From: a phage
Direction: 5' to 3' (one strand)
Sequence record: PZ379177.1
Length of the DNA stretch: 64,000 nt
Shown here: positions 4,107 to 62,759 of the stretch, piece after piece
Layout: each line of letters begins with the position of its first letter
Numbering within the stretch: position 1 is the first letter of the stretch
Program-made: the position numbers and the translations under genes
Notes under the pieces: generated by a model
Databases searched by the model: none
What the model saw: the letters and a program-made list of their open reading frames with translations, nothing else
Told to the model about the DNA's origin: nothing

Positions 4107-4639
4107 CAGAACATCCCCTTGATACCATTCATCACCTTTGTAGCGACGCCAGTGACGCTGGCAGAAGTTTCTTTTATGTATGCAATGCCGCGCTCTATTA
4201 CTGTTGAGTCGCCTGCCTGCGCTGTTTGAATAGACACATCCTGCTGTGTTAATATCTCATGGAAGACCAATTGTATGGGCTGAGATGTTATATTGTCAGC
4301 GTCCTGGCTGAAGTTGTTATTTTGCAGCACCATACGTTCGAATATTAGACCACGGGAATTAATTGTGTATATAGTCGACCTGTTTTGCAACATCTTAGCT
4401 ATTGCATCTGATGCGCTTTTCGTCTGAGCTATCACGGTGACAGTGAGTATTCGCGGCATCTTTACTCTGCCATCGACAATATAGCTGCCGTCTTCCCTTT
4501 GGTTTTTGAATATCTTCGCTTGGAGTCTTATTTTAACGTTAACAATCGCCCAACCAAGCGTTGACACTTCCCCAAGGTTGAAGCTTCTTATTGTGAAGCT
4601 TCTGTTGGAAAGACTATATGACAATAAATCGATAGCCAT
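4106..4639 (-). CDS. hypothetical tail-module protein
   Basis: 177-aa ORF, start/stop overlap with neighbours. Confidence 0.4.
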   Translation of the reverse strand: MAIDLLSYSLSNRSFTIRSFNLGEVSTLGWAIVNVKIRLQAKIFKNQREDGSYIVDGRVKMPRILTVTVIAQTKSASDAIAKMLQNRSTIYTINSRGLIFERMVLQNNNFSQDADNITSQPIQLVFHEILTQQDVSIQTAQAGDSTVIERGIAYIKETSASVTGVATKVMNGIKGMF

Positions 4640-5136
4640 TAAATTGACCCCAATATGCTCTGCACCACGCCTTTTGCAATTTGCGATGTGCTCTGTGCGC
4701 CGCCGTAGCTGGCAAACACGAATGTGTATCTGTTTGTCTTACGACGACCGGACTGCTCAATGGAGTCGCCAAGCGGACCGCTGATGATGGTCCCGTTCGA
4801 AAACGCCACTCTGCCGCCATCAGGATATGTAATAAGCATTGATGTGACATCCTGGATAGGAAGCCACTTGAATCCGCCTTTACGAGCGGAAAGCAAAAGC
4901 TTTAGGTTTATGTCATCTTCAGTGTTTGGGATCACCGCAATGGATACGCGAACGACGGCGGCCTTGTCATAAATACAAATGCCGCCGTCATAAGTAAGTT
5001 GATAGCCTACTGATTCAACTTCCTCAATAATTAGCGAATCCTGGTCATCAGACAAAGAACTGATATTCAGCCCAACAGGAAAAGATTGGAGAGCGACAAT
5101 TCTAATGCTTGTGCCAAATCCACTAATATTGACCAT
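4639..5136 (-). CDS. tail tube-like protein, paralog of 6087..6554
   Basis: 165 aa; N-terminus MVNISGFGTSIRIVA and later blocks align to 6087..6554 product (MINVSGFGASIRLVA; LTYPSG/ITYPDG). Confidence 0.5.
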   Translation of the reverse strand: MVNISGFGTSIRIVALQSFPVGLNISSLSDDQDSLIIEEVESVGYQLTYDGGICIYDKAAVVRVSIAVIPNTEDDINLKLLLSARKGGFKWLPIQDVTSMLITYPDGGRVAFSNGTIISGPLGDSIEQSGRRKTNRYTFVFASYGGAQSTSQIAKGVVQSILGSI

Positions 5137-5138
5137 GT

Positions 5139-5405
5139 TTACTCCGCAGATGCAGATTTAACTGCTGCAAGAATTTCATCCTTATAAGAAAGACCTTTGA
5201 TGTCAATCTCATGTTCCTTTGCATAAGCCTTCAATTCAGAGACGCTCATTGAATCAAAATCAACTTTCGATTCCACTTCCTTCTCTTCAACCTGTTCTTT
5301 CTTCTCCGCAACAGGGTTTGAAGTCTTTTTGAATAATTCCGATGCGTCTTCAAATTTTTCGCCAAATTTCATGACGCCATTAGCAAAATGAATTACTTGT
5401 GCCAT
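5139..5405 (-). CDS. hypothetical protein
   Basis: 88-aa ORF in tail operon, acidic, no motif. Confidence 0.4.
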   Translation of the reverse strand: MAQVIHFANGVMKFGEKFEDASELFKKTSNPVAEKKEQVEEKEVESKVDFDSMSVSELKAYAKEHEIDIKGLSYKDEILAAVKSASAE

Positions 5406-5761
5406 TATTGATTACTCACCTTTATACGTTCGCCATAAATAGTCACCACTTCAGCGGTGAATCCAAGAATACCGTTTTGGATGGTGACAGTCAATGAGTC
5501 GATTCCGGCAACGTCTGCTTTCTTCAGAATAGCATCTGCAATCGACTTTCTCGCACCGTCTTCATCAACGGGCGATTTGAAAACAGTGCCTAAATAATCG
5601 ACTCCGTTTTCAACATCGTACAAGTCTTCACCAAGTCGCAGTTGATGCGCTGCCTTGATAACTTGTACCATGGCCTTTTCTCCTGACAGAATATTCAAAT
5701 TTCTTCCATCAGGCAGAAACAGGTCGTTGTTATCATTAACTTCAATCGTTAGAGTTGTCAA
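5405..5761 (-). CDS. hypothetical protein
   Basis: 118-aa ORF, start overlaps upstream stop. Confidence 0.4.
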   Translation of the reverse strand: MTTLTIEVNDNNDLFLPDGRNLNILSGEKAMVQVIKAAHQLRLGEDLYDVENGVDYLGTVFKSPVDEDGARKSIADAILKKADVAGIDSLTVTIQNGILGFTAEVVTIYGERIKVSNQ

Positions 5762-14265: not shown

Positions 14266-14403
14266 TCAGTGAATATTAAAAAGCACTCCAGCAACTAAAA
14301 CGCCAATCAGCATCGAGTCGTAAACAGCCCATTTCCAAGAAAGCAAAGAGTTGCAATTAATATTTCGCACTTTAACGTAACGTGACTGAATAATCTTTTG
14401 CAT
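14266..14403 (-). CDS. small membrane protein (45 aa), not in ORF track
   Basis: ATG at 14403 preceded by AGAGGAAG RBS overlapping upstream stop; product MQKIIQSRYVKVRNINCNSLLSWKWAVYDSMLIGVLVAGVLFNIH has a C-terminal hydrophobic helix. Confidence 0.35.
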   Translation of the reverse strand: MQKIIQSRYVKVRNINCNSLLSWKWAVYDSMLIGVLVAGVLFNIH

Positions 14404-19388: not shown

Positions 19389-20849
19389 TCAAAGGTTAGA
19401 GAAGAAGCCGGATGCTGCAACAATTGGTTTCATCAACGCCATGATTGCTGCGTCCGCTTTGTTAGGCGATTTGACTCCACGCTTTGCCATATCCTTTTTC
19501 GATTCAACTTTAAACTTACCAAGCACAGACGTGTCTTTGCGCGGCGCTGACATCTCAAAAAGAAATGTCTCAATTTCTTCCGCAGACCAAGCAGGAATCC
19601 CAAGTTCTGGAATGCCGTCTGTGTCGATGGAAATCAGCTCATCAGTCGGGTATACGGCCTGCCCTGTTGCATACTCATATGTCTTCCTGAATCGTTCGGC
19701 AATCTCAGTCCATTTTTGCGCTTTTATGTTTGCGAAATGGTCTTTATTGAGTATTTCAACGTGTGGTAACTCAAGGAAGACGTCATCAGGATCATCAACA
19801 GCACCTTGCGCGTTGAACGCATTAAATTCGATTCTTGGGAATGTTGGATTTTCATGGATTGCATACTCATTAAGCTCATCAAATTTTGAACCAGCAAATG
19901 CACCAACACCGATGGCGTCATAGGTAATTGATGCGCCGAATGTTAATGCATCTTTCCAAACTCCGCTTGCGGACTTAAGCAATTCATCTTCCAGACCTTC
20001 CCATGTCTTGATGCCGCGCAATACGTTGCCCGTGACAAATGCTGTGGCGTTTAAGTCGTCGCCGTCGTCTGCCACGTCAAAGCCTATGCGGTTAGACCCT
20101 GACAAGCTCCATCCCAGCGTAGGGTGTTTGTGTAGGTTTAGCGCGGCCTTGACGAATGCACGGTTTATGACAGACTTGTCGCCGCCTGTCTTCGGTACTC
20201 CGCCATAAACGTGTTCTGCCTTTTTCGGGTCGCGCTCATACATGCCAGCAATAACGTCCAGCATTGTTTGCGACAAGAATGGATTGTCCTGCCAGTTAAT
20301 CTTCTTAACGATGGCGTTCTTCGGCGGTCGCATGACAAAGTTCTGGTAGACGAAATCAGCCTCTTCATCAGGGTTAAATATGATCCATATTTCGGACCCT
20401 TCCTTACGAATTGTCGGCTCAATAATGTCCCACTGCTCTTCAGTCAGCGCGTGCGCTTCCTCAAGCCAAAGAACATCAACGCCTTCTGTTGATTTGATTT
20501 CGTCAACGTTGCGTGCAATACCGTAAAATAAAAATTCAGATTTTGTTCTTTTGTGTTCAATAGAGTTCTTTAATAAGTTGAACTCGTCTTTAAAATCAGA
20601 AATCTCTATTTTGTCTTTTAATAGCGTATATACTGATTCAGAAATCTTGTTCTGGAATTGTCGGACGCAAAGGAATTTTAATTTAAAGTTTGCCGCCAAA
20701 TAAATAGCAAAACCAGCGGCATCATGCGATTTGGAAGATGCACGACCGCCGTATATTACTTTGTATCGCGCTTTCGTCTTCCAGACTTCTCTTAAAGCAG
20801 GATTCAACTGGTACATGACTTTCCAATTATGTGTTAATATTTTATTCAT
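19389..20849 (-). CDS. terL: terminase large subunit
   Basis: 486 aa; Walker A-like KVIYGGRASSKSHD near N-terminus, acidic nuclease-type C-terminal half. Confidence 0.8.
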   Translation of the reverse strand: MNKILTHNWKVMYQLNPALREVWKTKARYKVIYGGRASSKSHDAAGFAIYLAANFKLKFLCVRQFQNKISESVYTLLKDKIEISDFKDEFNLLKNSIEHKRTKSEFLFYGIARNVDEIKSTEGVDVLWLEEAHALTEEQWDIIEPTIRKEGSEIWIIFNPDEEADFVYQNFVMRPPKNAIVKKINWQDNPFLSQTMLDVIAGMYERDPKKAEHVYGGVPKTGGDKSVINRAFVKAALNLHKHPTLGWSLSGSNRIGFDVADDGDDLNATAFVTGNVLRGIKTWEGLEDELLKSASGVWKDALTFGASITYDAIGVGAFAGSKFDELNEYAIHENPTFPRIEFNAFNAQGAVDDPDDVFLELPHVEILNKDHFANIKAQKWTEIAERFRKTYEYATGQAVYPTDELISIDTDGIPELGIPAWSAEEIETFLFEMSAPRKDTSVLGKFKVESKKDMAKRGVKSPNKADAAIMALMKPIVAASGFFSNL

Positions 20850-21287: not shown

Positions 21288-21503
21288 ATGAAACTAATCG
21301 ACCGCGCCATCAAAGTCATTGATAATCACTCCACCGCGCTTGCTTTCGTGATGGGATTTTGTTTCACTGCTGCGTTTGGCGACGTTCACACATTCAAGTC
21401 TGTCATCTTGTGCTGGTCCATTTGGTCACTTATTTCTCTGGTTTTGATTCTTCCGATGACATGGCTTGTTCTTACTTGTCTGGAATCTCAAGGTGAAGAC
21501 TGA
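21288..21503 (+). CDS. small membrane protein
   Basis: 71 aa with two hydrophobic helices; RBS GGAGG upstream. Confidence 0.4.
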   Translation: MKLIDRAIKVIDNHSTALAFVMGFCFTAAFGDVHTFKSVILCWSIWSLISLVLILPMTWLVLTCLESQGED

Positions 21504-22143: not shown

Positions 22144-22485
22144 ATGAACAACACTTTATCACAACTTCTAATATGGACCATCGCCGCTATCATCGGCACC
22201 GTTATTATGATGTCAAGTGCAAAGGCCGATACGGATATTTGCGGCAGACTTATGTCTGAGAATGGCGAGATTTATTATGGCAACTCAAAAGGTGATTATA
22301 TATCGACTGAAGTTTGCGCTCAGAAGAAAGCAGAAATGCAAAAGCAGTATCATGAAGATCAATCCATATCTCAGGCCGCGCTGATTGAATTAAGTATATC
22401 AGCCATCATCTTTCTAATCGTTTTTATGCTCATTATTAAACCAAATAATGACAGCAACCGTCATATTCCTCTCAAAAGAAATTAA
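22144..22485 (+). CDS. secreted/membrane protein
   Basis: ORF trimmed to MNNTLSQ start with AAAGAGG RBS; N-terminal signal-like helix and C-terminal hydrophobic helix. Confidence 0.45.
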   Translation: MNNTLSQLLIWTIAAIIGTVIMMSSAKADTDICGRLMSENGEIYYGNSKGDYISTEVCAQKKAEMQKQYHEDQSISQAALIELSISAIIFLIVFMLIIKPNNDSNRHIPLKRN

Positions 22486-22523: not shown

Positions 22524-24866
22524 ATGCCAAGGCTAATATTCAAAAACAACTTTGAGGTCGCGCTCGCTCAGCCAACGACGACTTCAAACACCACAATCAC
22601 AATTCGCTCAGGGTCGGGCTTTCCGACCTTGGGCGCAAACGAGCGTGTAGTGGCGACAATCGTTGACGCTGCAACAGGCCTCCAATTCGAAATCGTCACA
22701 GTAACAGCCGTTGTTGGAAACGTCCTGACCGTGCAGCGTGCACAAGAAGGAACTGCAGCGCGTGCATGGGCAGCTGGCGATTTACTTTCCATTCGAACAA
22801 CTGCCGCGACTTTGACGGGTACTGTCCGAAACTTTGGAGAGATTCCCTCAGGCATCAACCTTAATGCGCTTACTGGCAGCTGGTTCGGTCAGTATTATCA
22901 ACCTTCTAGTGGCGCAGCATCAACTGCGCTTAATTACCCACTCCAATCGTCTGGCGTGCTGGAAGTAATTCAAATTTCAGCAAATGCTTGCTCACAAAAA
23001 TACACTACCACAGTAGGTTTTGAATATAATAGAACATTTGATGGCGCATCATGGTCACCTTGGAAGAGGGTTTATAGCGAACTCGATGTAATCCCAGTCT
23101 CCAACGGTGGTACAGGTCAAACTACCATCCAAGGAATGAAGTCTGCTTTTGGATTCGGGCAAGTCGCTGATCAGAATATTGTTCCTACTTCGATGGGCGG
23201 CACAGGCTCAGCAGACAACGCTCAAGCATGGCTAAATATTCGTCCACAAGGCTCAACACCGCTTGCTGGCGACCCAGTTAACGACTATGATGCGACAACT
23301 AAGCGTTGGGTTGAGAACTTAGTTAACACAGGCACCGTTGGCCCAAGTATGAACGGCGTCATGAACTATGGTGTTGGTGATTTCCATCTTCGCAATAGTA
23401 GATCATATATTCAGCAATACGAAGTCGTTGCAGACGGGCAATTACTAAACCGTGCTGACTGGCCTGAACTTTGGGCATATGCACAGATGCTTTCACCCAT
23501 TGCAGATGCCGATTGGCTTGCGGATAAGTTCAAACGTGCAAAATATTCTTTAGGCAACGGAACAACGACATTCCGTGTCCCAGACCTTAACGGTGTCCAG
23601 ACAGGTTCTGTACGGGCGCTGTATGGGCGCGGCGATGGCGGAAACTCCACTGCGAACGGTCAAATATTCGAATCTGCCGCGCCAAACATCACAGGCTCAG
23701 CCGCAGGTGTATCGGCAGGCACTTATGCGCAAATTTTTGGCACAGCCGTCCGAGGTGCTTTTTACACAAACAATGATTTGTACCCTCAAGGCGCTGGCGA
23801 CACCATACCTGTTGGAAGCGGTGCAGTAGAGGGTCGTCTCAATACAATAAATATTGATGCATCCAGATCAAGCCCGATTTATGGAGCAGCAACTGACGAA
23901 ATCATGGGCCGCAACTTTGTAGGCATTTGGGTTATTCGTGCATCGGGCGGATTTGTTGCCGCGAATACGCAATGGCAAGTTATCAATGCTGATGCTGTTC
24001 GCCCAGGGTCTGGAGTGAAGGCATCTTCTGGACAGGTAAAGGCACAATACAAAATTGGGACGACAGTTGAAGCAGAAGCAGGATTGCGAAGCGATGCATA
24101 CATGGATGGTATGTATTACGCAATAATGTCTGTCTACAACAAAACAAAAGGTGTTACAAAGGAATTTGCATTTGGCGATGATGGAATGCTGAATGGTGAC
24201 AGATACACTGCAAGATATGGCACATTGATGGCTTGGAGTGAGACTGGTACTAGAAGGGGAACATTCTCGATTGAGAACCAGTCACTTGCGGCGAACTATG
24301 CATTCAATAGTCTGCTCAGTGGTGGGCAATCGGTATCAGCAGGATATTATACTTCTACACACTTTGGCATGATTCACAATGACGGTGGAAGCTTTGCTCA
24401 ATCGTGCTGGCACGTGGTTGGTGACGAAAACAACGGGTATGGTTGCCGATTGGCGATTCAACCAAACAACGATAACATATTCTTTTATCGTTGGGTGCCT
24501 GGTGATACCGCTACTTATACACTTGCAAAGAATGCTGTGTCTGATGAAAGGCTTAAATCTGATATCACTGATGTCTCTGTTGATAAGGCTTGGGCGAATA
24601 TTGCTGCGCTTAACTTTGTTAATTTCGTCTATAAGTCCGATGAACAGCAAAGGTTGCGGCGCGGCATCATAGCACAGCCTACAGAGTTAATTGAGCCTCT
24701 TTATGTTAAAACTCGTAAATTTTACGACGACAACAATGTGCAACAAGAGCAAAAGGAGCTTGACACAACTCCAATGCTTCTTGACACGATGCACGTGGTT
24801 CAGGAGTTGATGAAAAAGGTTGAGTCACTAGAGGCAGAGATAGCCGCGCTGAAATCAGCAAAATAA
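22524..24866 (+). CDS. tail fibre protein with C-terminal intramolecular chaperone (peptidase S74-type) domain
   Basis: 780 aa; C-terminal block SDERLKSDITDVS...ALNFVNFVYK...GIIAQ typical of auto-cleaving fibre chaperone domains. Confidence 0.7.
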   Translation: MPRLIFKNNFEVALAQPTTTSNTTITIRSGSGFPTLGANERVVATIVDAATGLQFEIVTVTAVVGNVLTVQRAQEGTAARAWAAGDLLSIRTTAATLTGTVRNFGEIPSGINLNALTGSWFGQYYQPSSGAASTALNYPLQSSGVLEVIQISANACSQKYTTTVGFEYNRTFDGASWSPWKRVYSELDVIPVSNGGTGQTTIQGMKSAFGFGQVADQNIVPTSMGGTGSADNAQAWLNIRPQGSTPLAGDPVNDYDATTKRWVENLVNTGTVGPSMNGVMNYGVGDFHLRNSRSYIQQYEVVADGQLLNRADWPELWAYAQMLSPIADADWLADKFKRAKYSLGNGTTTFRVPDLNGVQTGSVRALYGRGDGGNSTANGQIFESAAPNITGSAAGVSAGTYAQIFGTAVRGAFYTNNDLYPQGAGDTIPVGSGAVEGRLNTINIDASRSSPIYGAATDEIMGRNFVGIWVIRASGGFVAANTQWQVINADAVRPGSGVKASSGQVKAQYKIGTTVEAEAGLRSDAYMDGMYYAIMSVYNKTKGVTKEFAFGDDGMLNGDRYTARYGTLMAWSETGTRRGTFSIENQSLAANYAFNSLLSGGQSVSAGYYTSTHFGMIHNDGGSFAQSCWHVVGDENNGYGCRLAIQPNNDNIFFYRWVPGDTATYTLAKNAVSDERLKSDITDVSVDKAWANIAALNFVNFVYKSDEQQRLRRGIIAQPTELIEPLYVKTRKFYDDNNVQQEQKELDTTPMLLDTMHVVQELMKKVESLEAEIAALKSAK

Positions 24867-25651: not shown

Positions 25652-25849
25652 GTGAATCAAAATGAATCAGTAGCATTCTTACAATGGCTGGAAGGTGTGG
25701 TGGAGTATTACGCTCCAAAAGACCGCTTCATCTTTCAAGGAAAAAGTTACAAGCGCAAAGGGCAGGCCCAGAAAGCAGCGCGTAAGTACTGGAAGGAAGT
25801 TTATTCAGAGTTCTTTCAGCAGATGGGCAGCACAGTTGGTATCGATTGA
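25652..25849 (+). CDS. hypothetical protein
   Basis: 65-aa ORF. Confidence 0.4.
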   Translation: MNQNESVAFLQWLEGVVEYYAPKDRFIFQGKSYKRKGQAQKAARKYWKEVYSEFFQQMGSTVGID

Positions 25850-25944
25850 TGAATGTTGATTTCGTGATGTTTTTGATCATATTGGCGATAAGTTCAGTAT
25901 TTGTTGTCGCTATGATCGCGCTTATTGATTGGTTGGATAAATAA
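25849..25944 (+). CDS. small hydrophobic protein (31 aa), not in ORF track
   Basis: ATG shares its A with the upstream TGA stop; product MNVDFVMFLIILAISSVFVVAMIALIDWLDK is a single transmembrane helix. Confidence 0.3.
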   Translation: MNVDFVMFLIILAISSVFVVAMIALIDWLDK

Positions 25945-55412: not shown

Positions 55413-55676
55413 ATGGTACGCATCCTTGAACGTTACAAAAATGAAGCTACTGGCGCAATCGCTTTCAAACGTCTTTTGGTCAAAGAAATTGACGGGATGT
55501 TCCGCGTTGTTAAAGAGTTTGATTATGGCAACGGTGCTGGGGTGAATACCGTTATTATGCCTGGCATCAAGGCGTATAAAACCTTGAAAGGCGCTGAGAA
55601 GGCTTTGGCGGCTTGGAAGCCTGAACGTTATCAAATGACCCGTGTTGAAGGGCTAATGCAAGAAGGTAAAATATGA
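55413..55676 (+). CDS. hypothetical protein
   Basis: 87-aa ORF. Confidence 0.4.
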   Translation: MVRILERYKNEATGAIAFKRLLVKEIDGMFRVVKEFDYGNGAGVNTVIMPGIKAYKTLKGAEKALAAWKPERYQMTRVEGLMQEGKI

Positions 55677-56230
55677 GCAATATTAATTGGGAAGATGATT
55701 TGCCGCAGGTCGCTCCTGAGAGCATTCAAGAGCGCCTTGCGCGCTTAGTATCTGAACTGGCAGAACGCCAAGAAGCTTTGACAGAGCTTGAAGATGAAGC
55801 TGATATGCAAAAGCAGCGAATCAGTGAAATCAAAACTGTTCTGCTTCCTGGCGTTATGGATGAGCTTGGCGTGTCCGAAATCAAGCTTGAGGACAAGACC
55901 AAAATCAAGGTCGAGTCCAAGGTGAATGCTTCAATCAAGAAAGAAAACGAATTAAAAGTTTTCGATTGGCTTGTCAACAACGGTTACGGCGGCTTGATCA
56001 AGTCCAGCGTCACGGCTGAGTTCGGTCGCGAAGAAATCGAACAGGCGCAAGAGATTGTTGCCGCGCTGCGTGAAGATGGTGTTGAAGTCACATTGAAACA
56101 AGGCGTTCATTCTGCTACACTGAAGTCATTTGTAAAAGAACAGCTGGAAGCAGGCAATCCAGTTAGTGAAGATATTAGCGTTTTTGAATACAAAGAAGCT
56201 AAAATAACCTTGCCTAAAAGCAAAAAGTAA
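55673..56230 (+). CDS. hypothetical coiled-coil protein
   Basis: 185-aa acidic ORF. Confidence 0.4.
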   Translation: MSNINWEDDLPQVAPESIQERLARLVSELAERQEALTELEDEADMQKQRISEIKTVLLPGVMDELGVSEIKLEDKTKIKVESKVNASIKKENELKVFDWLVNNGYGGLIKSSVTAEFGREEIEQAQEIVAALREDGVEVTLKQGVHSATLKSFVKEQLEAGNPVSEDISVFEYKEAKITLPKSKK

Positions 56231-56289
56231 TTTAACCTTTATCTTGAAATCAGGTTGCCACGAAACTTGATACTATAGGAAAATATCAA

Positions 56290-57150
56290 ATGTCTAAGAA
56301 AGAAACTACCGAAGTTGCAGTGAAAAACACCCAGATGTCCGCTATGGCTGATTTTGTCGACATGACCGATTTTGGCGCTGGTTTTGAAGGTGCCGATGCC
56401 GATGCATATGCCATTCCTTTTATCGTCGTGCTGCAGAAGATGTCTCCTATGGTCGACGAAGATGATCCAAAACACGTTCCTGGCGCAAAAGCTGGCATGC
56501 TTTACAACACCGTTACTGGTGAGTTGTATGACGGCAAGAAAGGCGTGCAGATCATTCCTTGCGCATTCAAACGTACCTTCATTCTTTGGGGCGGTCGCGA
56601 GTCCGACGATAAAGGCTTTAAAGGTGAATTTACCAAAGAGCACGTTGATGCAGAAGTAGCGGCAGGCCGCGCTGTTGAGATCAACGGTAAAGTATTTGTG
56701 CCGGACGAAAACGGCAAGGTGCACGAGAAGAAGTCTCCTTACTACGCAGATACACGTAACCACTTCGTAATTCTGTTGAACGAAGAAACGGGTGAATTTG
56801 GTAGCGCAATGCTGTCTTTGACTTCTTCCATGATCAAGCCGTCTCGCATGCTGATGACCGCTCTGCAGCAGAAGAAAGTTCAGACTCCGCAAGGTCTGAA
56901 AACGCCGCCGACCTTTATGAACATCGTTCGCATGGGTACTGCATCCCAGTCCAAAGACGGCAACACCTGGTCCGTTCTTAAGTTTGAGCTGGAAGGTCTG
57001 GTGCAGGACAAAGGTCTGTACGAAGTCGCCAAGGCATTCCACAACGACGTAGTTGGCGGCAACGTTAACATCGACCGCAGCAAGCAAGAAGAAGCAAGTG
57101 GCGCTGCTGGCCCTGTCAATGAAACTCCGACCGACGCAGAAGAGTTTTAA
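56290..57150 (+). CDS. possible ssDNA-binding protein
   Basis: acidic C-terminal tail ending in Phe (TPTDAEEF), as in T7 gp2.5-type SSBs; replication-module context. Confidence 0.35.
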   Translation: MSKKETTEVAVKNTQMSAMADFVDMTDFGAGFEGADADAYAIPFIVVLQKMSPMVDEDDPKHVPGAKAGMLYNTVTGELYDGKKGVQIIPCAFKRTFILWGGRESDDKGFKGEFTKEHVDAEVAAGRAVEINGKVFVPDENGKVHEKKSPYYADTRNHFVILLNEETGEFGSAMLSLTSSMIKPSRMLMTALQQKKVQTPQGLKTPPTFMNIVRMGTASQSKDGNTWSVLKFELEGLVQDKGLYEVAKAFHNDVVGGNVNIDRSKQEEASGAAGPVNETPTDAEEF

Positions 57151-57169
57151 TCGACAATCAAATCAACAA

Positions 57170-57198
57170 GGCTGCCGATTGGCGGCCTTTTATTTATC
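57170..57198 (+). terminator. rho-independent terminator
   Basis: hairpin GCTGCCGATTGGCGGC followed by CTTTTATTTAT. Confidence 0.45.
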
Positions 57199-57207
57199 TG
57201 GTGCATC

Positions 57208-57726
57208 ATGATAGAAAGAATTGTACCGCTCCTGAAGATTCTGGCCCTTGTTGGCGCATTTGCCGCTGGATCATACGTTGAAGACCTGCAGCAAACCAAC
57301 GCATCACTGGCCAAGGATAATCAATATCTGACATCGCTTAATGAGCGTAAGGACAAGATAAATGCACTCGAAGAGCAAATTGCATCTTTACAGGTTGAAT
57401 CGGCATCGGCATATGAGAAGGGTCGCCAGGAAGCGCAACTGGTTGCTGATGACACTATTGCTAGTTACAAGTCTGGGAATATCAAGCTGCGCGAGCAACT
57501 CAGCTGCTCCCGTGAGTTACTCAGGAGTATGCCCGACTCTGCGACCACTGGACGCCTCTCTATCCCAGAAGGAAACTGTGGACTATCAGAAGAAGATGTC
57601 AGATTTCTTGTTCAGTTCGCCGCAGAAACAAACCGATTAAAAGAGAAGGTTAATAGCTTGATTGATACTTATAATCAGGCTAAAATAAAAATCGATCAAT
57701 TCAATGCATCAAAGGAAAATAAATGA
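57208..57726 (+). CDS. i-spanin (Rz-like)
   Basis: N-terminal TM helix IVPLLKILALVGAFAAG followed by long coiled coil; contains nested o-spanin ORF in another frame. Confidence 0.5.
   Translation: MIERIVPLLKILALVGAFAAGSYVEDLQQTNASLAKDNQYLTSLNERKDKINALEEQIASLQVESASAYEKGRQEAQLVADDTIASYKSGNIKLREQLSCSRELLRSMPDSATTGRLSIPEGNCGLSEEDVRFLVQFAAETNRLKEKVNSLIDTYNQAKIKIDQFNASKENK
57413..57640 (+). CDS. o-spanin (Rz1-like lipoprotein), nested within i-spanin gene
   Basis: MRRVARKRNWLLMTLLLVTSLGISSC signal with lipobox ISS-C; short Pro-rich mature part. Confidence 0.45.
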   Translation: MRRVARKRNWLLMTLLLVTSLGISSCASNSAAPVSYSGVCPTLRPLDASLSQKETVDYQKKMSDFLFSSPQKQTD

Positions 57727-58316
57727 AACAGATTTATGCAAACATTCGCCAGTGGGCTTCTGACCGTAACATCATCCAAGGTTGCGACCTTAAGGACCAA
57801 TACCCGAAGCTTATCAGCGAGTTTGGGGAGTTAACCGACCACGTTGATCAACTCCATGACCTTGTGTTCTTTGACCCTGAAATCGGATATACAGAGCAGG
57901 CCATTTGTGATTTGCAAGCCGCAATCAAGGACGACATCGGTGATTGCCTTGTTGTGTTAACTATTCTTGCCGCGCAAAATGGTGCAAAAATCGAAGACAT
58001 CAACGGCGGCGGTTGCGCTGACAAAGGCGCTCACCCTCATTCCTTTATCCTTCGCTTGGCGAAGACTCTCGGACGGCTTGGTGACGCCATTGCTAAAAAT
58101 CAAAGCATGGATATTGATGTCACTATCATGGCCGCAGTCGATTATCTTTCCGGCGTAGCGCATGATTATGGACTTCGACTGTCTGATTGCGCTCAAGCCG
58201 CCTATGAAGACATCAAGGACCGTAAAGGTGTGATGTACAACGGAACGTTTATCAAATCGACTGATCAGGCTTATGCCTATGCGCTGGAACAAGTGATGAA
58301 TAAGGAGTTTGAGTGA
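57723..58316 (+). CDS. MazG-like nucleotide pyrophosphohydrolase (putative)
   Basis: helical protein with EFGELTDH and DDIGDCLVVL motifs resembling MazG EExxE/D boxes. Confidence 0.35.
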   Translation: MKQIYANIRQWASDRNIIQGCDLKDQYPKLISEFGELTDHVDQLHDLVFFDPEIGYTEQAICDLQAAIKDDIGDCLVVLTILAAQNGAKIEDINGGGCADKGAHPHSFILRLAKTLGRLGDAIAKNQSMDIDVTIMAAVDYLSGVAHDYGLRLSDCAQAAYEDIKDRKGVMYNGTFIKSTDQAYAYALEQVMNKEFE

Positions 58317-59290
58317 TGGCAGGAGAAATCAAAGCATTAAAACCAATGAAAGGTTGCCAGCGTAAACAAATCATCGAGCGCGGCGAAGATGTGCCGCTGC
58401 CTTGCGGATTATCCTTCAAGGTCGATGGAATACGCGCGATGGCGTATGACAACTTGCCAATGGGCACATCCGGCATGGCACTGCGCAACATTCAAATCAA
58501 AAAAGAGTTCCTATTCTTGGGTGAATTGATTCACGGACTTGATGGAGAGCTAATTGACGGTAATCCGAATGACAAGAACGTCATGCAACAGGCCTATACT
58601 GCATGCATGAACACTGATGCAATCACTAACTTTACATGGTGGGTGTTTGATGACTTCAGCGACCCTGATTTGCCTTTTGAAAAGCGTTATGCAAACTATC
58701 GCGCTAGAGTTGCTGAAGTCAATCAGCACCTCATCAACCATGGTCGACGCCCATTCCTTCGCGCTCTCGAATATCGAAACATCGAAAATATGGAACAGTA
58801 CGCGGCGATGCAAATCGAAGCAGACCAACTTGGCTATGAAGGCTTGTATGGCAAGTCTTGGACGGGCAAATACAAGCATGGCCGCGCGACGCCAAAGTCA
58901 CGTGATGTGTGGAAGGACAAGCCGTGGACCGATGAGGAAGGACTGATCATAGACTTCGTTGAGATGATGGAGAACAACAACGAAGCATTCATTGATGAGT
59001 TGGGTCGCACTAAGCGTTCGAAAGAGGCTGAAGGCTTAGTTGCAAAAGGATACCTTGGATCATTTGTGGTTGTCAATCCAAAATATGTTGATGAGAAAGG
59101 TGAAATGATTCCTTTCCGCGTCTCCGCTGGTTCAATGCCTATGGCAGAGAGAAAAATGCTTTGGGAGAATCGCGAGAATTATCGCAACAAGTATCTGACA
59201 TATAAATTCTTCAACTTTGGCATCGTTGACGTGCCGCGCTCTGCCTTGTATAAATGCTTCCGTGATATTACCGATATGGAGTATTTTTAA
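58316..59290 (+). CDS. ATP-dependent DNA ligase
   Basis: adenylation motif I SFKVDGIRAM (KxDGxR); ATG shares its A with the upstream TGA stop. Confidence 0.6.
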   Translation: MAGEIKALKPMKGCQRKQIIERGEDVPLPCGLSFKVDGIRAMAYDNLPMGTSGMALRNIQIKKEFLFLGELIHGLDGELIDGNPNDKNVMQQAYTACMNTDAITNFTWWVFDDFSDPDLPFEKRYANYRARVAEVNQHLINHGRRPFLRALEYRNIENMEQYAAMQIEADQLGYEGLYGKSWTGKYKHGRATPKSRDVWKDKPWTDEEGLIIDFVEMMENNNEAFIDELGRTKRSKEAEGLVAKGYLGSFVVVNPKYVDEKGEMIPFRVSAGSMPMAERKMLWENRENYRNKYLTYKFFNFGIVDVPRSALYKCFRDITDMEYF

Positions 59291-59363
59291 CACACTGGAT
59301 AAATAATTGGTGCGTATAATCTATCGCGCCGTTTTCTAGAATTTAATATACAGTGTATACATA

Positions 59364-59393
59364 AAGCCGGAAATTTCCGGCTTTTCTTTTATT
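59364..59393 (+). terminator. rho-independent terminator
   Basis: hairpin AAGCCGGAAATTTCCGGCTT followed by TTCTTTTATTT. Confidence 0.5.
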
Positions 59394-59465
59394 TACTTTC
59401 GGCGTATTTACTTTCAAAACCTTGAGCCTATACTATTAATATTCATAATCAAAAGGTGAATTATA

Positions 59466-60008
59466 ATGAAAGCGAACAAATTAAAGATTGTTTTGATCAT
59501 CATCATGGCTATGCTGACAGTTATATTCTTCACCAAGACTGCATCGGCTGAAAATATGTTTACGCCGCCGAATGGAAGTGCAAAAGTTTTGACAAGATAT
59601 TTCAACAATGGGCAGTCATTTGAGTTTTGCTGGAATAAATACGACGTAATAAAAGAAAGATTTGACAAAGAAAAGATGTGCGTAATGAATGATCGCGGTC
59701 GGCAGGTCGTGTCGTTTGTGTTCGGAATGTCAATGGCAAAAGTTGATGCCCCTGAAATCGTTGTCAGGTATAATACATTGGACAGCGGCCTTGTCGACAA
59801 GACATACCCTGTTGCAGTAGACAGCAGGACAGGCGGCGCACTAATACTCACTCCAGAAGATAAATCAGATGTCGTTAACATGCTCATCAACAGCAAAGAC
59901 GTAATCGTGTTTTATCATATTGAAGGCGTATCAGACTACCAAATGGCCTACTATCCACTGCCCTTGAGAGATTCTTCAGGTAATGTTAAGACACAGGAAG
60001 CGCGTTGA
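59466..60008 (+). CDS. secreted/periplasmic protein of unknown function
   Basis: signal-peptide-like N-terminus MKANKLKIVLIIIMAMLTVIFFTKTASA. Confidence 0.45.
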   Translation: MKANKLKIVLIIIMAMLTVIFFTKTASAENMFTPPNGSAKVLTRYFNNGQSFEFCWNKYDVIKERFDKEKMCVMNDRGRQVVSFVFGMSMAKVDAPEIVVRYNTLDSGLVDKTYPVAVDSRTGGALILTPEDKSDVVNMLINSKDVIVFYHIEGVSDYQMAYYPLPLRDSSGNVKTQEAR

Positions 60009-60235
60009 CATGGGTGGTAGTTATGCAGAAAGATTTGGAAGAAAACAAAAGGCTGAAAAAGGCTTTGACGTCTCAAATCTTGTCCCTGTTGGTAAAGCTT
60101 ATTGGGGAGTCAATTAGCAACAAGGTGGCACGGGCCGCGATTGTGGGTGCAATTGGTATGGCGGGTTATTATTTCGACTTACCAGACATTGATACAAGTT
60201 CCGCTCCGCCCGTCCAAGTTGAAGCCGTAAAATAA
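60005..60235 (+). CDS. small membrane protein (holin candidate by context only)
   Basis: 76 aa with one hydrophobic helix AAIVGAIGMAGYYF; converges on endolysin gene. Confidence 0.3.
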   Translation: MTWVVVMQKDLEENKRLKKALTSQILSLLVKLIGESISNKVARAAIVGAIGMAGYYFDLPDIDTSSAPPVQVEAVK

Positions 60236-60237
60236 AC

Positions 60238-60262
60238 AAAGGCCCATATGGGCCTTTTTTCT
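60238..60262. terminator. bidirectional rho-independent terminator between convergent genes
   Basis: hairpin AGGCCCATATGGGCCT flanked by A-run upstream and T-run downstream. Confidence 0.55.
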
Positions 60263-60906
60263 TACATAACTGCTAGTGCATCTTTGTAACGCTTTCTTCG
60301 CAACTCACCGTGGTTTGCTGCATTCGGCGCGGCCCCGTTAATCCGCTTAACGGTTGAATCAAAATTTCCTGCATCCGCAAGAGGAATACAGCCGCTATTC
60401 TTAAAGAACCATGCCGCGCTGTCAGCAATGTATTTTGGTTCAGTCAGAATATCAGGATTGTTCAATGCATCGTATCCTGATTGACGCGTATATTCCGCAT
60501 AGTTGGCCTTGCCAGTAAGCTGAATGGCACCACGGCCACGATACTTCCAACCGTCGCCAGATGATACCGAACCGTTGCCCATGCGGTTTGCATATGTATT
60601 ATTGGCGATTTCCACAGGTTTACGTGCAATCGACAGGGCCAATGAGTTCGGGGCGCTTCCAGAACGACCGTTGACGCTGTAACGACTAGGCCATGTATTG
60701 GCAAGACCTTGAGCAGAGTAGTTGAGATTTTCCACAAAGGTCTTCAAGCTGCCCGTTTCTACTCCTACGTTTGCAAGGAATGCCGCGATGGCATTCTTGC
60801 TTTTGATTCCGTAGTGCTCACAAGCCTGCTTGAAAGGGTCCACCCATTTCTCTGCAACATCCATGCTGCATCCGGTCCCTTTAGATATTACGTTTGCGTT
60901 AATCAT
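60262..60906 (-). CDS. endolysin, glycoside hydrolase family 19-like
   Basis: motifs FLANVGVETG and GRGAIQLTGKANY. Confidence 0.65.
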   Translation of the reverse strand: MINANVISKGTGCSMDVAEKWVDPFKQACEHYGIKSKNAIAAFLANVGVETGSLKTFVENLNYSAQGLANTWPSRYSVNGRSGSAPNSLALSIARKPVEIANNTYANRMGNGSVSSGDGWKYRGRGAIQLTGKANYAEYTRQSGYDALNNPDILTEPKYIADSAAWFFKNSGCIPLADAGNFDSTVKRINGAAPNAANHGELRRKRYKDALAVM

Positions 60907-60914
60907 AAATCACC

Positions 60915-62759
60915 TTATGCGCTTCTGTACCAGCCATTCAAAACAACGTATCGCGGCAAAGTCGCAACAGCCGTTGGCACCGACTGCCCTGCATTGCCAG
61001 TGTTACCGACCACATCGTGAGTGTGAGCGGGAAGGGTATAGCTGTGGCTGTGATTGCCAGCGTAATTTATATTCAACCCATGGGTGTGTGATCCAGAAGA
61101 TTGAATATTATGAACGTGGTTGCCATTAGTTGACGTATTGTATTTGTAGTTATCCCAGTCGCCGCCTTTGCGACTTCCGAAGTTGTTGTGTGTCCCATCA
61201 TAAACGCCGTACCGCGCATCGCTAGTATTGGCTTCACCCCAGCTACTGTCATGGTGGTGGTTGCCTGCCGTGTCCATTCCGTGCACGTGAGCGCCGTTTT
61301 GACTGGTATCGCCTGTGTGGTTGTGGTTGCCTGCGTCTCCAGTGGTATTGGACCATGGACCACTTTGTCGCGTGGTAATGTTCACACTGTGATTGTGGAG
61401 AGGAAGCATGGCGGCGGTAAGGGTAACAGAGTCTGCTCCGCCTGTATCAAGACCGTTTCGTGCAGCGCCGGACGTTCGAATCACCATGTTATCAGGCAGT
61501 CGTGTCCATACCTGGCCGTAAGCGCCCAGTTTAGTATTCGGGTTGGTCCCGTTGGTGAGGAATCGAGTCTCACCGACTTCGAACACATCACCCATAGTGA
61601 TCAACTTCGCAGCCAAAGCATCGAGTTGGCGCTTTGTAACAAACTGTTGCGGCTCAGTAGCATCAACGCCGATTTGCGCCGCGCCAAACGCCTGAAGGAG
61701 ACGCCAAACAGTTCCGTCATAAATGATGGTGAATGGCAGCAATCCTACGATAGCGCCAGCTGGCAACTCGCCGCCGTCGAATCCAAGAACGGCAACTTTG
61801 TTTACACCAATGGTCACGGTGACAGGTCCGGTAGTCGTTACATCATTGACGATTGTCAGGCGACTACCTGCTGACGGAGGCCATGAATACCCTGCTGGAA
61901 CGGTGAGAATTATATCTTGCGCGCCTTTACCTGATGCAAGATTCGGCGTTCCAATTTGCACATCTTGAACAGTGGCATTTTGAATCCAAGCACTCCAAGC
62001 ACCAGAAGTATAAGAGCGAGTAAACAAATAGCCATTCATTGATGTATATTGCTGCAAGGCAAAGGTTTGCGCATCGACCTGCCAAGCGCAGACCTGCAGT
62101 CGACCTGCAACCTTCGTTGCGCCAACCGCATTCGGGATGTTAGAGCACAGAGCGGCGACGGCATAGGATTGAATGACGATAGTTGTGGATGTCGTGATGT
62201 TATCGAAGTCCACAAAACTTGAAATCAATCCGCGAACAAAGTACGGGTTTTGCGCATCGCCGCCAGCAGGCATCGGAATGTATTTTCGCGCTTCGCTGGG
62301 CAGTGTTAATTCCTGCCAAGATTCCGTTTCTCCGTTAGCTGGTACGGCGCTTGTGTTGCCGTCGACCACGCTCTGAAAGATGCGCCACTCAGGTGCTGAA
62401 GGCGTTCCAGAGTTGCTGACAACGATGGCATTTTTCGGGTATCCATCAGGCTTCAAGTCAGAAGAGAAATATTGTTGAGCGCCATGATCTTGAATAAACA
62501 TAAGGTTGTCTGTGATCAAATTCAGCAACCAGTTCATCGATTCGCGCTCAACAGCTTTCGCGGCGACGTTTCCAGCCTCCAGAGCAAGCGCATAGTCAGG
62601 GGTGTAGCCGCGCTGGAAGTTTACATAACCGCTTGGGCTTGCATCCGGCACCACGGATACATCACCGCTTTGCGCGAAAGGTCTGTTAATAAGTGTTGGC
62701 ATTGCCGTTCCTCTACACGATGTATTTAATTTTTGATAAAAGGGTCGATGCCCAATCAC
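60915..62759 (-). CDS. tail fibre protein with His-rich C-terminal repeats
   Basis: 614 aa; C-terminus has repeated HxH and GNH motifs (NHNHTGD, HVHGMD, NHHHDS, HVHNIQ, HTHGLN, HSHSYT, HTHDVV). Confidence 0.55.
   Translation of the reverse strand: MIGHRPFYQKLNTSCRGTAMPTLINRPFAQSGDVSVVPDASPSGYVNFQRGYTPDYALALEAGNVAAKAVERESMNWLLNLITDNLMFIQDHGAQQYFSSDLKPDGYPKNAIVVSNSGTPSAPEWRIFQSVVDGNTSAVPANGETESWQELTLPSEARKYIPMPAGGDAQNPYFVRGLISSFVDFDNITTSTTIVIQSYAVAALCSNIPNAVGATKVAGRLQVCAWQVDAQTFALQQYTSMNGYLFTRSYTSGAWSAWIQNATVQDVQIGTPNLASGKGAQDIILTVPAGYSWPPSAGSRLTIVNDVTTTGPVTVTIGVNKVAVLGFDGGELPAGAIVGLLPFTIIYDGTVWRLLQAFGAAQIGVDATEPQQFVTKRQLDALAAKLITMGDVFEVGETRFLTNGTNPNTKLGAYGQVWTRLPDNMVIRTSGAARNGLDTGGADSVTLTAAMLPLHNHSVNITTRQSGPWSNTTGDAGNHNHTGDTSQNGAHVHGMDTAGNHHHDSSWGEANTSDARYGVYDGTHNNFGSRKGGDWDNYKYNTSTNGNHVHNIQSSGSHTHGLNINYAGNHSHSYTLPAHTHDVVGNTGNAGQSVPTAVATLPRYVVLNGWYRSA

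What the first reader, a model, noticed from the sequence alone, without database searches (positions are those of the whole stretch)
57208..57726. Nested spanin pair located inside the replication block, separated from the endolysin
The i-spanin-like ORF (TM helix plus coiled coil) fully contains, in another frame, an ORF with a lipoprotein signal (ISS-C lipobox) and a Pro-rich mature part, the lambda Rz/Rz1 architecture. The pair sits between an SSB-like gene and a MazG-like gene, about 2.5 kb from the GH19 endolysin on the opposite strand. No clear holin is adjacent to either, so the lysis genes are dispersed.
Basis: partly seen in the sequence, partly recalled or inferred. Interest (0 to 1): 0.4.

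Follow-up and report, generated by a model that had tools for sequence, protein, structure and literature searches.

The report
Nested Rz/Rz1-type spanin gene pair
This is a genuine pair of phage lysis genes, one nested inside the other, that breaks the host's outer membrane at the end of infection; it is already catalogued for this phage genus, so the finding is correct but ordinary.

Summary
The window is a Wifcevirus, an E. coli myophage 96-98% identical to EC150, WFH, ECML-117 and Mansfield. ORF 57208-57726 (+, 172 aa) is an i-spanin: N-terminal membrane helix, then helix, linker, helix, and PHROG 1327 'Rz-like spanin' at E 1e-26. Fully inside it, in the +1 frame, lies an outer-membrane lipoprotein gene (57413-57640; longest ORF starts at 57362) with lipobox ISSC.

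A single-sequence test for the nested ORF is weak. The comparative test is decisive: three homologues with only 26-30% identical i-spanins (PY54, Mica, Nafs113) all carry a +1 lipoprotein ORF at the same place. It is 42-46% identical, beyond all 3000 synonymous recodings each. Profiles link the pair distantly to lambda Rz and Rz1.

The pair is already known. Kongari et al. 2018 list the ECML-117 pair, and GenBank records of Mansfield and the BASEL phages annotate it.

New context: the position between a conserved terminator and MazG is a variable lysis-gene slot across PB1-like phages. It holds spanin pairs matching at least two, probably three, spanin PHROG families, or a GTA-holin-like membrane protein (PB1 gp52).

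No Wifcevirus holin is recognisable. 'Pro-rich' is overstated (4 of 50 residues), and 'SSB-like' for the upstream gene is unverified.

The parts
57168..57197 (+). Intrinsic terminator (9-bp GC-rich stem, 4-nt loop, T-tract). It ends 10 nt before the i-spanin ATG and marks the upstream boundary of the slot.
   Evidence: terminator scan; -18.9 kcal/mol, z = -2.5. The same hairpin sits at the same place in Kyle and WR01, and a similar one in PB1. It is annotated in Mansfield.
57208..57726 (+). i-spanin gene (172 aa). It encodes an N-terminal transmembrane helix and a helical periplasmic domain with a linker, with Cys100 and Cys124.
   Evidence: phrog_1327 Rz-like spanin at 1.1e-26. TM and Cys positions. 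AF2 helices H5-88, H92-114 and H128-170. Homologues lie in the PY54 and Mica lysis cassettes.
57220..57276 (+). Transmembrane anchor of the i-spanin (about residues 5-23).
   Evidence: KD17 maximum of 2.14 at residue 5. It is flagged as the only TM of this ORF.
57413..57640 (+). o-spanin gene (75 aa from the second ATG), entirely inside the i-spanin gene in the +1 frame. The longest ORF starts at 57362 (92 aa).
   Evidence: The 75-aa start is the one used for ECML-117 in Kongari 2018. The product is 42-46% identical to embedded ORFs of Nafs113, PY54 and Mica, beyond all 3000 synonymous recodings. hhalign to lambda Rz1 gives E 2e-7, probability 94%.
57479..57490 (+). Lipobox I-S-S-C. The Cys codon is at 57488-57490. 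Ala at +2 predicts outer-membrane sorting.
   Evidence: The Cys is invariant in 7 of 7 Wifcevirus sequences and in all distant homologues.
57723..58316 (+). MazG-like pyrophosphatase. Its start overlaps the i-spanin stop (ATGA), so it belongs to the same transcription unit.
   Evidence: phrog_1992 at 6.3e-63; coordinates.
58313..59290 (+). ATP-dependent DNA ligase, the last gene of the unit. A terminator follows at 59363-59384.
   Evidence: phrog_114 at 5e-42; terminator.
60262..60906 (-). GH19 endolysin. It is soluble, with no N-terminal hydrophobic or SAR domain.
   Evidence: Pfam Glyco_hydro_19 at 32.2 bits, above the gathering score, and phrog_181 at 1e-69. N-terminal KD15 maximum is 0.49.
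60023..60235 (+). Small conserved protein (phrog_5165), convergent with the endolysin across a bidirectional terminator (60238-60257). It is only weakly hydrophobic and its function is unknown.
21288..21503 (+). 71-aa protein with two hydrophobic stretches, the first read by eye only. It is the best, but unsupported, holin candidate in the window.
   Evidence: The hydropathy scan flagged one segment, residues 39-57. It is conserved in WFH. No holin-family hit was found.
22144..22485 (+). 113-aa protein with an N-terminal signal or TM and a C-terminal TM, but no lipobox. Function is unknown. It is a second membrane-protein candidate.
   Evidence: No family hit was found.

Best explanation
The locus encodes a two-component spanin of the embedded (lambda Rz/Rz1) architecture.

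- The 172-aa product is a type II inner-membrane protein. Its helical periplasmic domain is built as helix, linker, helix.
- The 75-aa product of the +1 frame is secreted, lipidated at Cys26 (lipobox ISSC) and sorted to the outer membrane (Ala at +2).
- The two C-terminal regions bind each other, so the complex spans the periplasm through the peptidoglycan mesh.
- When the GH19 endolysin (60262-60906) destroys the peptidoglycan, the complexes are freed to fuse or disrupt the outer membrane, which completes lysis.

The pair is not part of a lysis cassette. It is the first gene of a unit made of terminator, spanins, MazG and DNA ligase. This is a conserved variable 'lysis-gene slot' of PB1-like phages.

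Shown here: gene structure, signals, family membership, and selection on both frames. Inferred from the lambda paradigm: topology, lipidation, complex formation, membrane fusion, and dependence on the endolysin.
For: - Identity of the phage and existing annotation. The published census entry for the 98.8% identical ECML-117 pair records an embedded pair, an o-spanin of 75 aa spanning 0.395-0.834 of the i-spanin gene, and one predicted coiled coil.
- Family: phrog_1327 Rz-like spanin, E 1.1e-26.
- Homologues: tblastn finds PY54 p62 (E 1e-14) and Mica gp68 (E 2e-6). Both are the last gene of holin-endolysin-spanin cassettes. Mica gp68 hits Pfam PF03245 (Rz) at 6e-17.
- Signals: TM helix, lipobox and Cys positions. 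The AF2 model is all-helical with a linker at 115-127.
- Nested gene: Nafs113, PY54 and Mica all carry a +1-frame lipoprotein ORF at the same position. It is 42-46% identical to the window's, while the i-spanins are only 26-30% identical.
- Null test: observed similarity scores of 128, 140 and 96 compare with null means of 35, 44 and 27. None of 3000 synonymous recodings reached the observed value for any homologue.
- Link to lambda: hhalign of the o-spanin profile against Rz1 gives E 2e-7 (probability 94%). It aligns the lipobox Cys and the second Cys with Rz1 C20 and C29. The i-spanin profile against Rz gives E 5e-5 (probability 67%) and aligns C100 with Rz C99.
- Within the genus: the ORF and its Cys are intact in 7 of 7 Wifcevirus sequences.
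Against: - No experiment exists for any Wifcevirus lysis gene.
- The window's i-spanin itself does not reach Pfam PF03245 or DUF2514 even at E <= 10.
- The single-sequence statistics are weak.
- The mature o-spanin is not Pro-rich, unlike Rz1.
- The o-spanin start codon is unresolved. ATG 57362 has the better Shine-Dalgarno sequence (AAGGA); ATG 57413 gives the more typical signal peptide.
- No promoter is visible between the terminator and the ATG, so the timing and level of expression are unknown.
- No holin is identified to release the soluble endolysin.
Confidence: 0.93

Rival explanations
1. Only the 172-aa membrane-anchored coiled-coil protein is real. The nested +1 ORF would be an untranslated by-product of the amino-acid composition of the outer gene.
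For: With the i-spanin protein fixed, the +1 frame stays open for at least 92 codons in 20% of synonymous recodings, and the mean longest open stretch is 69 codons. Pfam and NCBIfam find nothing for the nested product, and its PHROG hit is weak at 9.6e-4.
Against: - The +1 product is more conserved (42-46%) than the outer protein (26-30%) across PY54, Mica and Nafs113. The lipobox Cys, the second Cys and a shared C-terminal motif (roughly D-x-x-L-[MS]-Q ... D-[YF]-[QG] ... M-x-x-F-L-F) are all kept.
- None of 3000 recodings per homologue reaches the observed similarity.
- There is profile similarity to lambda Rz1, E 2e-7.
Confidence: 0.03
2. The pair is a spanin by descent but has been co-opted in this genus for another envelope function. 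Examples would be superinfection exclusion or an early-expressed role, as its place in a replication/nucleotide-metabolism operon might suggest. Outer-membrane disruption would then be done by something else.
For: The pair lies after a terminator, in one unit with MazG and ligase, and not with the endolysin. In sister genera the same slot holds a different membrane protein, phrog_1544. Wifcevirus has very short latent periods: 3-5 min from adsorption to progeny release as summarised, and development complete within about 10 min.
Against: - All spanin-defining features are intact: TM, linker, periplasmic Cys residues, lipobox and OM sorting residue.
- No other spanin candidate exists in the window. 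There is no PB1 gp08-type u-spanin homologue, and the membrane-protein scan shows no other lipobox protein.
- Well-studied phages such as T4 and T7 also keep spanin genes away from the endolysin (general knowledge; for T4-like genomes see Kongari 2018).
Confidence: 0.04

Closest known systems
Escherichia phage ECML-117 embedded spanin pair (Kongari et al. 2018 census; SwissProt I7ATQ8), and the annotated pairs CPT_Mansfield_057/058 and Bas98-101 'Rz-like spanin/o-spanin'
   Same: It is the same genes. The i-spanin is 98.8% identical, with the same coordinates relative to neighbours, the same +1 embedding and the same lipobox.
   Different: There are two amino-acid differences in the i-spanin (S86R, M107V) and one to three in the o-spanin. 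Nothing differs structurally.
Lambda Rz/Rz1 (prototype embedded two-component spanin)
   Same: - Architecture: the o-spanin lies wholly inside the i-spanin gene in the +1 frame.
- The i-spanin has an N-terminal TMD, then helix, linker, helix.
- The o-spanin is a small OM lipoprotein.
- The periplasmic Cys residues align with Rz C99 and Rz1 C29.
   Different: - Sequence similarity is only at profile level (E 5e-5 and 2e-7), and there is no direct Pfam PF03245 hit.
- The mature o-spanin is 50 aa with 8% Pro. From general knowledge, Rz1 is 40 aa with 25% Pro.
- The pair is not in an S-R-Rz cassette. It sits about 2.5 kb from the endolysin, among replication genes.
Yersinia phage PY54 p62, Burkholderia phage Mica gp68/gp69 and Pantoea phage Nafs113 ORF66 (closest sequence homologues outside the genus)
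   Same: The i-spanins are homologous (26-30% identity), and the embedded o-spanins are homologous at the same position (42-46% identity).
   Different: PY54 and Mica keep the pair in a canonical holin-endolysin-spanin cassette. The Nafs113 and PY54 (NC_005069.1) records do not annotate the embedded ORF.
T4 pseT.3/pseT.2 and T7 gp18.5/18.7 (spanins of virulent phages encoded away from the endolysin)
   Same: The lysis genes are dispersed, and the spanins are not adjacent to the endolysin or holin (general knowledge; T4-like dispersal is noted in Kongari 2018).
   Different: The T4 pair has the separated architecture, and the sequence families are unrelated.

Membership tests
Two-component spanin, embedded architecture (criteria of Kongari et al. 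2018) | The i-spanin has a single N-terminal transmembrane domain (type II, N-in/C-out). | tested here: met
   KD17 is 2.14 at residues 5-21, and this is the only TM segment. R4 and K10 lie at the N-terminal side of the helix, with E25 and D26 after it (sequence).
Two-component spanin, embedded architecture (criteria of Kongari et al. 2018) | The periplasmic domain of the i-spanin is alpha-helical or coiled coil, interrupted by a linker. | tested here: met
   The AF2 single-sequence model gives H5-88, H92-114, a linker at 115-127 and H128-170, with mean pLDDT 69.9. A crude heptad scan is positive around residues 41-70 and 92-120. Kongari's supplement lists one coiled coil for ECML-117.
Two-component spanin, embedded architecture (criteria of Kongari et al. 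2018) | The o-spanin has a lipoprotein signal peptide with a lipobox and Cys, and no inner-membrane retention residue at +2. | tested here: met
   The signal reads MRRVARKRNWLLMTLLLVTSLG-ISS-C with Ala at +2. The test used a regular expression and hydropathy only. SignalP and LipoP were not available.
Two-component spanin, embedded architecture (criteria of Kongari et al. 2018) | The o-spanin gene lies entirely within the i-spanin gene, out of frame. | tested here: met
   57413 (or 57362) to 57640 lies inside 57208-57726, at frame offset +1.
Two-component spanin, embedded architecture (criteria of Kongari et al. 2018) | Both frames are under selection, meaning the nested product is conserved in relatives. 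| tested here: met
   0 of 3000 recodings reached the observed similarity for each of three homologues. The ORF is intact in 7 of 7 genus members.
Two-component spanin, embedded architecture (criteria of Kongari et al. 2018) | Periplasmic Cys residues are available for intermolecular disulfide bonds. | tested here: met
   The i-spanin has C100 and C124, and the mature o-spanin has C15. C100 aligns with lambda Rz C99, and the o-spanin Cys aligns with Rz1 C29. Bond formation itself is not testable here.
Two-component spanin, embedded architecture (criteria of Kongari et al. 2018) | The pair is required for outer-membrane disruption, and the two subunits interact. | not testable with these tools
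   This needs complementation of lambda Rz(am)Rz1(am) or phage knockouts. No Wifcevirus lysis experiments were found in the library.
Pfam PF03245 Phage_lysis (Rz) / PF10721 DUF2514 | The hit scores above the gathering threshold. | tested here: not met
   The window protein gives no hit even at E <= 10. Among homologues, Mica scores 62.4 bits (met), Nafs113 scores 23.9 bits (just under the 25.4 threshold), and PY54 hits DUF2514 at 34 bits. hhalign of the 4-sequence profile against lambda Rz gives E 5e-5, probability 67%. The protein is therefore a remote relative and not a Pfam-level member.
PHROG 1327 (Rz-like spanin) | Significant full-length profile match. | tested here: met
   E 1.1e-26, 94.5 bits, residues 6-160 against profile positions 9-156 of 158.
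Classical lysis cassette (holin-endolysin-spanin cluster) | The spanin genes are adjacent to the endolysin and holin genes. | tested here: not met
   The neighbours are a Pam3_Gp34-like gene and MazG. The endolysin is 2.5 kb away on the other strand. The same layout is found throughout PB1-like phages.

The most novel reading that the evidence does not exclude
The position between the conserved terminator and MazG is an ancestral, exchangeable lysis-gene slot of the PB1-like supergroup.

- In Pbunavirus, Kylevirus and Myosmarvirus it holds a 201-aa membrane protein (phrog_1544, PB1 gp52). That protein shares its N-terminal Gly-zipper and coiled-coil module with GTA_holin_3TM holins. In the 'spanin-less' phage BPP-1 its homologue sits directly after the endolysin.
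- In Wifcevirus and at least three uncultured lineages it has been replaced by spanin pairs matching at least two, probably three, spanin PHROG families.

If phrog_1544 is the supergroup's holin, then Wifcevirus lost that holin when it gained the spanins. It has a soluble GH19 endolysin and a latent period of minutes, so it would have to release the endolysin through an unrecognised holin type, such as the 71-aa product of 21288-21503 or the phrog_5165 protein beside the endolysin.
Probability: 0.3. Interest if true: 0.45.

Novelty: already known. Interest (0 to 1): 0.15.

Why it matters
The spanin pair itself adds nothing new.

The modest added value is comparative:
- The dispersed layout is conserved across a large, therapeutically used phage supergroup (the Pbunavirus relatives).
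- The slot exchanges functionally related envelope genes.
- ECML-117 and PY54, listed as 'singleton' spanin families in the 2018 census, are in fact distant homologues that also include Mica and Nafs113.
- Wifcevirus, noted for extremely fast lysis, still has no identified holin. This is a concrete target for anyone studying why these phages lyse so quickly.

Tried and rejected
- Pfam and NCBIfam on both spanin products gave nothing usable.
- The single-sequence ORF-openness test showed that openness alone is not significant (20% of recodings). I replaced it with the cross-homologue recoding test.
- The within-genus substitution analysis on 7 sequences had too few sites (14 in the overlap) to infer selection. 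It only shows that the ORF and lipobox stay intact.
- For the 'SSB-like' upstream gene, PDB sequence search gave no hit. AF2 single-sequence gave pLDDT 35.6, too poor for a fold search.
No holin family was hit. 14266-14403 and 25849-25944 are very short or weak. 60023-60235 is only weakly hydrophobic (KD19 = 1.2).
- tblastn of PB1 gp08 (u-spanin), gp10, gp52 and gp49 against the window found no significant homologue.
- GC content of the spanin gene (0.443) is not distinct from its neighbours, so there is no compositional sign of recent transfer.
- I considered phrog_1544 as a spanin analogue, because of the slot swap and the BPP-1 position. I now rate it below the holin reading. SMHB1 gp38, which shares its N-terminal module, is a clear PF11351 holin-family member (1e-14), and PB1 gp52 itself gives a sub-threshold PF11351 hit.
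- The literature search found no experimental work on Wifcevirus or Pbunavirus lysis genes.

Full report
**What the window is.** Megablast of 56000-61000 finds 29 phage records covering at least 80% of the query at 90-98% identity. All are Wifcevirus myophages of E. coli or Shigella: EC150 97.9%, WFH 97.5%, ECML-117 and Mansfield 96.3%. Wifcevirus is a distant relative of the Pseudomonas Pbunavirus (PB1-like) phages (Humolli et al. 2025, PMC11990801; Mansfield announcement PMC6753283).

**Observation.**
- The outer product has one N-terminal hydrophobic helix (IVPLLKILALVGAFAAG, KD17 = 2.14) and two Cys residues (100 and 124).
- An AlphaFold2 single-sequence model (mean pLDDT 69.9) is entirely helical: H5-88, H92-114, a Pro/Gly/Cys-containing linker at 115-127, then H128-170. 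This is the TMD, helix, linker, helix plan of lambda Rz.
- The nested product reads MHSKSKLHLYRLNRHRH-MRRVARKRNWLLMTLLLVTSLGISS-C-ASNS.... It has a basic n-region, a hydrophobic core and lipobox I-S-S-C (nt 57479-57490), with Ala at +2, which predicts outer-membrane sorting.
- The mature part is 50 aa with one further Cys and only four Pro (8%), so 'Pro-rich' is overstated.
- MazG (57723-58316, phrog_1992, 6e-63) overlaps the i-spanin stop by 4 nt. The ATP-dependent DNA ligase follows (58313-59290).
- The GH19 endolysin (60262-60906, minus strand; Pfam GH19 at 32 bits, phrog_181 at 1e-69) lies 2,536 nt downstream.

**Is the nested ORF more than chance?** On this sequence alone the evidence is only weak. 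When the i-spanin protein is kept and its codons are redrawn synonymously, the +1 frame stays open for at least 92 codons in 20% of 20,000 recodings. A lipoprotein-like signal appears in 1.5% of them.

The comparative evidence settles the question.
- tblastn finds distant i-spanin homologues in Yersinia phage PY54 (E 1e-14), Burkholderia phage Mica (E 2e-6) and Pantoea phages Nafs113 and LIET2 (about 1e-12, C-terminal half).
- All three that I read carry a +1-frame ORF at the same position, encoding a lipoprotein with a lipobox ending in SGC. They also keep a second Cys about 12-14 residues later and a shared C-terminal motif, roughly D-x-x-L-[MS]-Q ... D-[YF]-[QG] ... M-x-x-F-L-F.
- These products are 42-46% identical to the window's o-spanin, whereas the i-spanins are only 26-30% identical.
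- I permuted synonymous codons within each homologue's i-spanin gene. None of 3000 permutations reached the observed similarity. Observed scores were 128, 140 and 96, against null means of 35, 44 and 27 and null maxima of 93, 102 and 66.
- Within the genus, the ORF and the lipobox Cys are intact in 7 of 7 sequences.

**Family placement.**
- The i-spanin matches PHROG 1327 'Rz-like spanin' at 1.1e-26. The nested product matches phrog_4306 only weakly, at 9.6e-4.
- Pfam PF03245 (Rz) is not hit by the window protein even at E <= 10.
- Among the homologues, Mica hits PF03245 at 6e-17. Nafs113 scores 23.9 bits, just under the gathering score. PY54 hits the i-spanin family DUF2514.
- Profile comparison with lambda gives E 5e-5 (probability 67%) for Rz and aligns C100 with Rz C99. 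It gives E 2e-7 (probability 94%) for Rz1 and aligns both Cys residues with Rz1 C20 and C29.
- PY54 p62 and Mica gp68/69 are the last genes of canonical holin-endolysin-spanin cassettes.
- The pair is therefore a remote member of the Rz/Rz1 lineage.

**Already known.**
- Kongari et al. 2018 (PMC6139136) list ECML-117 among embedded two-component spanins, with this same i-spanin sequence apart from two residues. Their o-spanin is 75 aa, which corresponds to a start at the second ATG (window 57413). It spans 0.395-0.834 of the i-spanin gene, and one coiled coil is listed.
- GenBank records of Mansfield (CPT_Mansfield_057/058) and of BASEL phages Bas98-101 annotate an i-spanin and an o-spanin at the same coordinates.
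- Kongari's tables list ECML-117 and PY54 as separate 'singleton' families. The searches here show they are distant homologues.

**Genomic context: a conserved, exchangeable slot.**
- The gene order helicase, DUF7307, Pam3_Gp34-like, X, MazG, ligase..., phrog_5165, then endolysin and tail fibre on the other strand is shared by PB1, Pantoea phage Kyle and Serratia phage WR01/MTx. A strong terminator hairpin follows the Pam3_Gp34-like gene in each of them.
- The hairpin itself is conserved: AAGGCTGCC-loop-GGCGGCCTT in the window, Kyle and WR01.
- In those three genera, X is not a spanin. It is a 201-aa membrane protein (phrog_1544, PB1 gp52) with an N-terminal glycine zipper, a coiled coil and C-terminal TM helices, and no nested lipoprotein. 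The window has no homologue of it.
- I scanned IMG/VR with a profile of the Pam3_Gp34-like protein and classified the downstream gene.
  - phrog_1544 occupies X in 13 PB1-like contigs.
  - Wifcevirus carries the present pair.
  - Three other lineages carry different spanin pairs:
    - L025: i-spanin 4932-5510 with an embedded LSAC lipoprotein at 5182-5430; phrog_1327 at 1e-5.
    - L034: i-spanin 4371-4892 with an embedded LASC lipoprotein at 4624-4827; phrog_312 at 1e-26.
    - L036: i-spanin 4415-4759 overlapped by an LSAC lipoprotein at 4647-4958.
  - Xanthomonas phage XcP1 (L024) has a TM protein followed by a separate lipoprotein.
- The spanin's place 'inside the replication block' is therefore the ancestral layout of the supergroup and not an oddity of this phage.

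**What phrog_1544 may be.**
- PB1 gp52 is 49% identical to Bbp1 of Bordetella phage BPP-1. Bbp1 is the gene directly after the endolysin bbp2, at the end of bbp4-bbp3-bbp2-bbp1.
- BPP-1 is listed as 'spanin-less' by Kongari. The MTx announcement states that neither a holin nor a spanin was found.
- Salinivibrio phage SMHB1 gp38 also sits directly after an endolysin and shares the N-terminal module. It is a clear member of Pfam PF11351 GTA_holin_3TM (1e-14). PB1 gp52 gives a sub-threshold hit to the same family (E 0.018).
- I therefore read phrog_1544 as a probable holin-type protein, and the slot as a lysis-gene slot. This is inference and remains untested.

**The missing holin.**
- The endolysin has no N-terminal hydrophobic or SAR segment (KD15 maximum 0.49), so it should need a holin.
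- No ORF in the window hits a holin family.
- The candidates are:
  - 21288-21503: 71 aa, two hydrophobic stretches, conserved in WFH.
  - 22144-22485: 113 aa, N-terminal signal or TM plus C-terminal TM, no lipobox.
  - 60023-60235: phrog_5165, always convergent with the endolysin in all four genera, but only weakly hydrophobic (KD19 = 1.2).
  - 25849-25944: 31 aa, one TM.

- The Mansfield annotators did not call a holin either.

**Mechanism.** The following is inferred from the lambda paradigm as summarised in Kongari 2018.
- The i-spanin is anchored in the inner membrane and the lipidated o-spanin in the outer membrane.
- Their periplasmic C-terminal regions bind, forming disulfide-linked complexes that span the periplasm.
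- The complexes are held in check by the peptidoglycan. Once the endolysin removes it, they disrupt or fuse the outer membrane.
- No sigma-70-like promoter lies between the terminator and the ATG. Expression is probably by terminator read-through from the upstream replication genes, or from an unrecognised phage promoter. Timing is unknown.
- Early synthesis would be harmless, because spanins act only after peptidoglycan degradation.

**Verdict.** Interest is low. The slot comparison and the unresolved holin are the only points that go beyond existing annotation.

Noticed in passing
L008:6830-7435 (PB1 gp52), L009:6916-7521 (Kyle gp063), L010:6850-7455 (WR01); the same slot as window 57208-57726: In Pbunavirus, Kylevirus and Myosmarvirus, the position between the conserved terminator and MazG holds a 201-aa membrane protein (phrog_1544) and no spanin pair. 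That protein has a Gly-zipper, a coiled coil and C-terminal TM helices. The window has no homologue of it.
   Followed up: yes
L067:140-772 (BPP-1 Bbp1, minus strand); L069:2878-3462 (Salinivibrio SMHB1 gp38): Relatives of PB1 gp52 lie directly after the endolysin in BPP-1, a phage listed as 'spanin-less' by Kongari 2018, and in SMHB1. SMHB1 gp38 is a clear Pfam GTA_holin_3TM member (1e-14). PB1 gp52 reaches that family only below threshold (E 0.018). This suggests phrog_1544 is a holin-type lysis protein.
   Followed up: partly
L025:4932-5510, L034:4371-4892, L036:4415-4958, L024:4442-5192: Other uncultured PB1-like contigs carry spanin pairs that match other spanin PHROG families (L025 matches the window's own family), in embedded, overlapped or separated architecture, in the same slot upstream of MazG and ligase.
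   Followed up: yes
L013:4493-4687 (Nafs113); L014:2709-2918 (PY54): An embedded Rz1-like o-spanin ORF is present but unannotated in the Nafs113 and PY54 (NC_005069.1) records. Nafs113 labels the upstream lipoprotein ORF67 (L013:3967-4233) as the o-spanin.
   Followed up: partly
window 60023-60235 (+) and the terminator at 60238-60257: A small protein (phrog_5165) is conserved in PB1 (gp49), Kyle, MTx/WR01 and Wifcevirus, 330 records in all. It always converges on the endolysin across a bidirectional terminator. It has an amphipathic helix and a weakly hydrophobic Gly/Ala-rich stretch, and its function is unknown.
   Followed up: partly
window 59466-60008 (+): A 180-aa protein has a clear N-terminal signal peptide (…FFTKTASA|ENMF). 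Its position and length match secreted proteins in Kyle (gp059) and WR01, and no counterpart is annotated in PB1. No family hit was found.
   Followed up: no
window 56290-57150 (+): The Pam3_Gp34-like protein (PF23977) has an acidic C-terminus ending in Phe (…DAEEF; A283, E284 and F286 are invariant in 4 genera). This resembles the C-terminal tails of bacterial and T7-type SSBs, and may be what prompted 'SSB-like'. The fold could not be tested.
   Followed up: partly
window 21288-21503 and 22144-22485 (+), between TerL (19389-20849, minus strand) and the tail fibre gene (22524-24866): Two conserved small membrane proteins of unknown function lie here. The second is an intact ORF in WFH but is unannotated in its RefSeq record.
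   Followed up: partly
window 55673-56230 (+), DUF7307 / Pam3 gp33-like: The Pbunavirus homologue of this gene appears to be the one labelled 'U-spanin' in the JJ01 paper (ORF85, 621 nt, via PHASTER; matched to PB1 gp54 by length and position only). The protein's sequence shows no TM segment and no lipobox, so that label looks like a propagated misannotation. The PB1 u-spanin in Kongari's tables is best matched by gp08 (L012:3592-4026; lipobox AWAC, 144 aa).
   Followed up: partly
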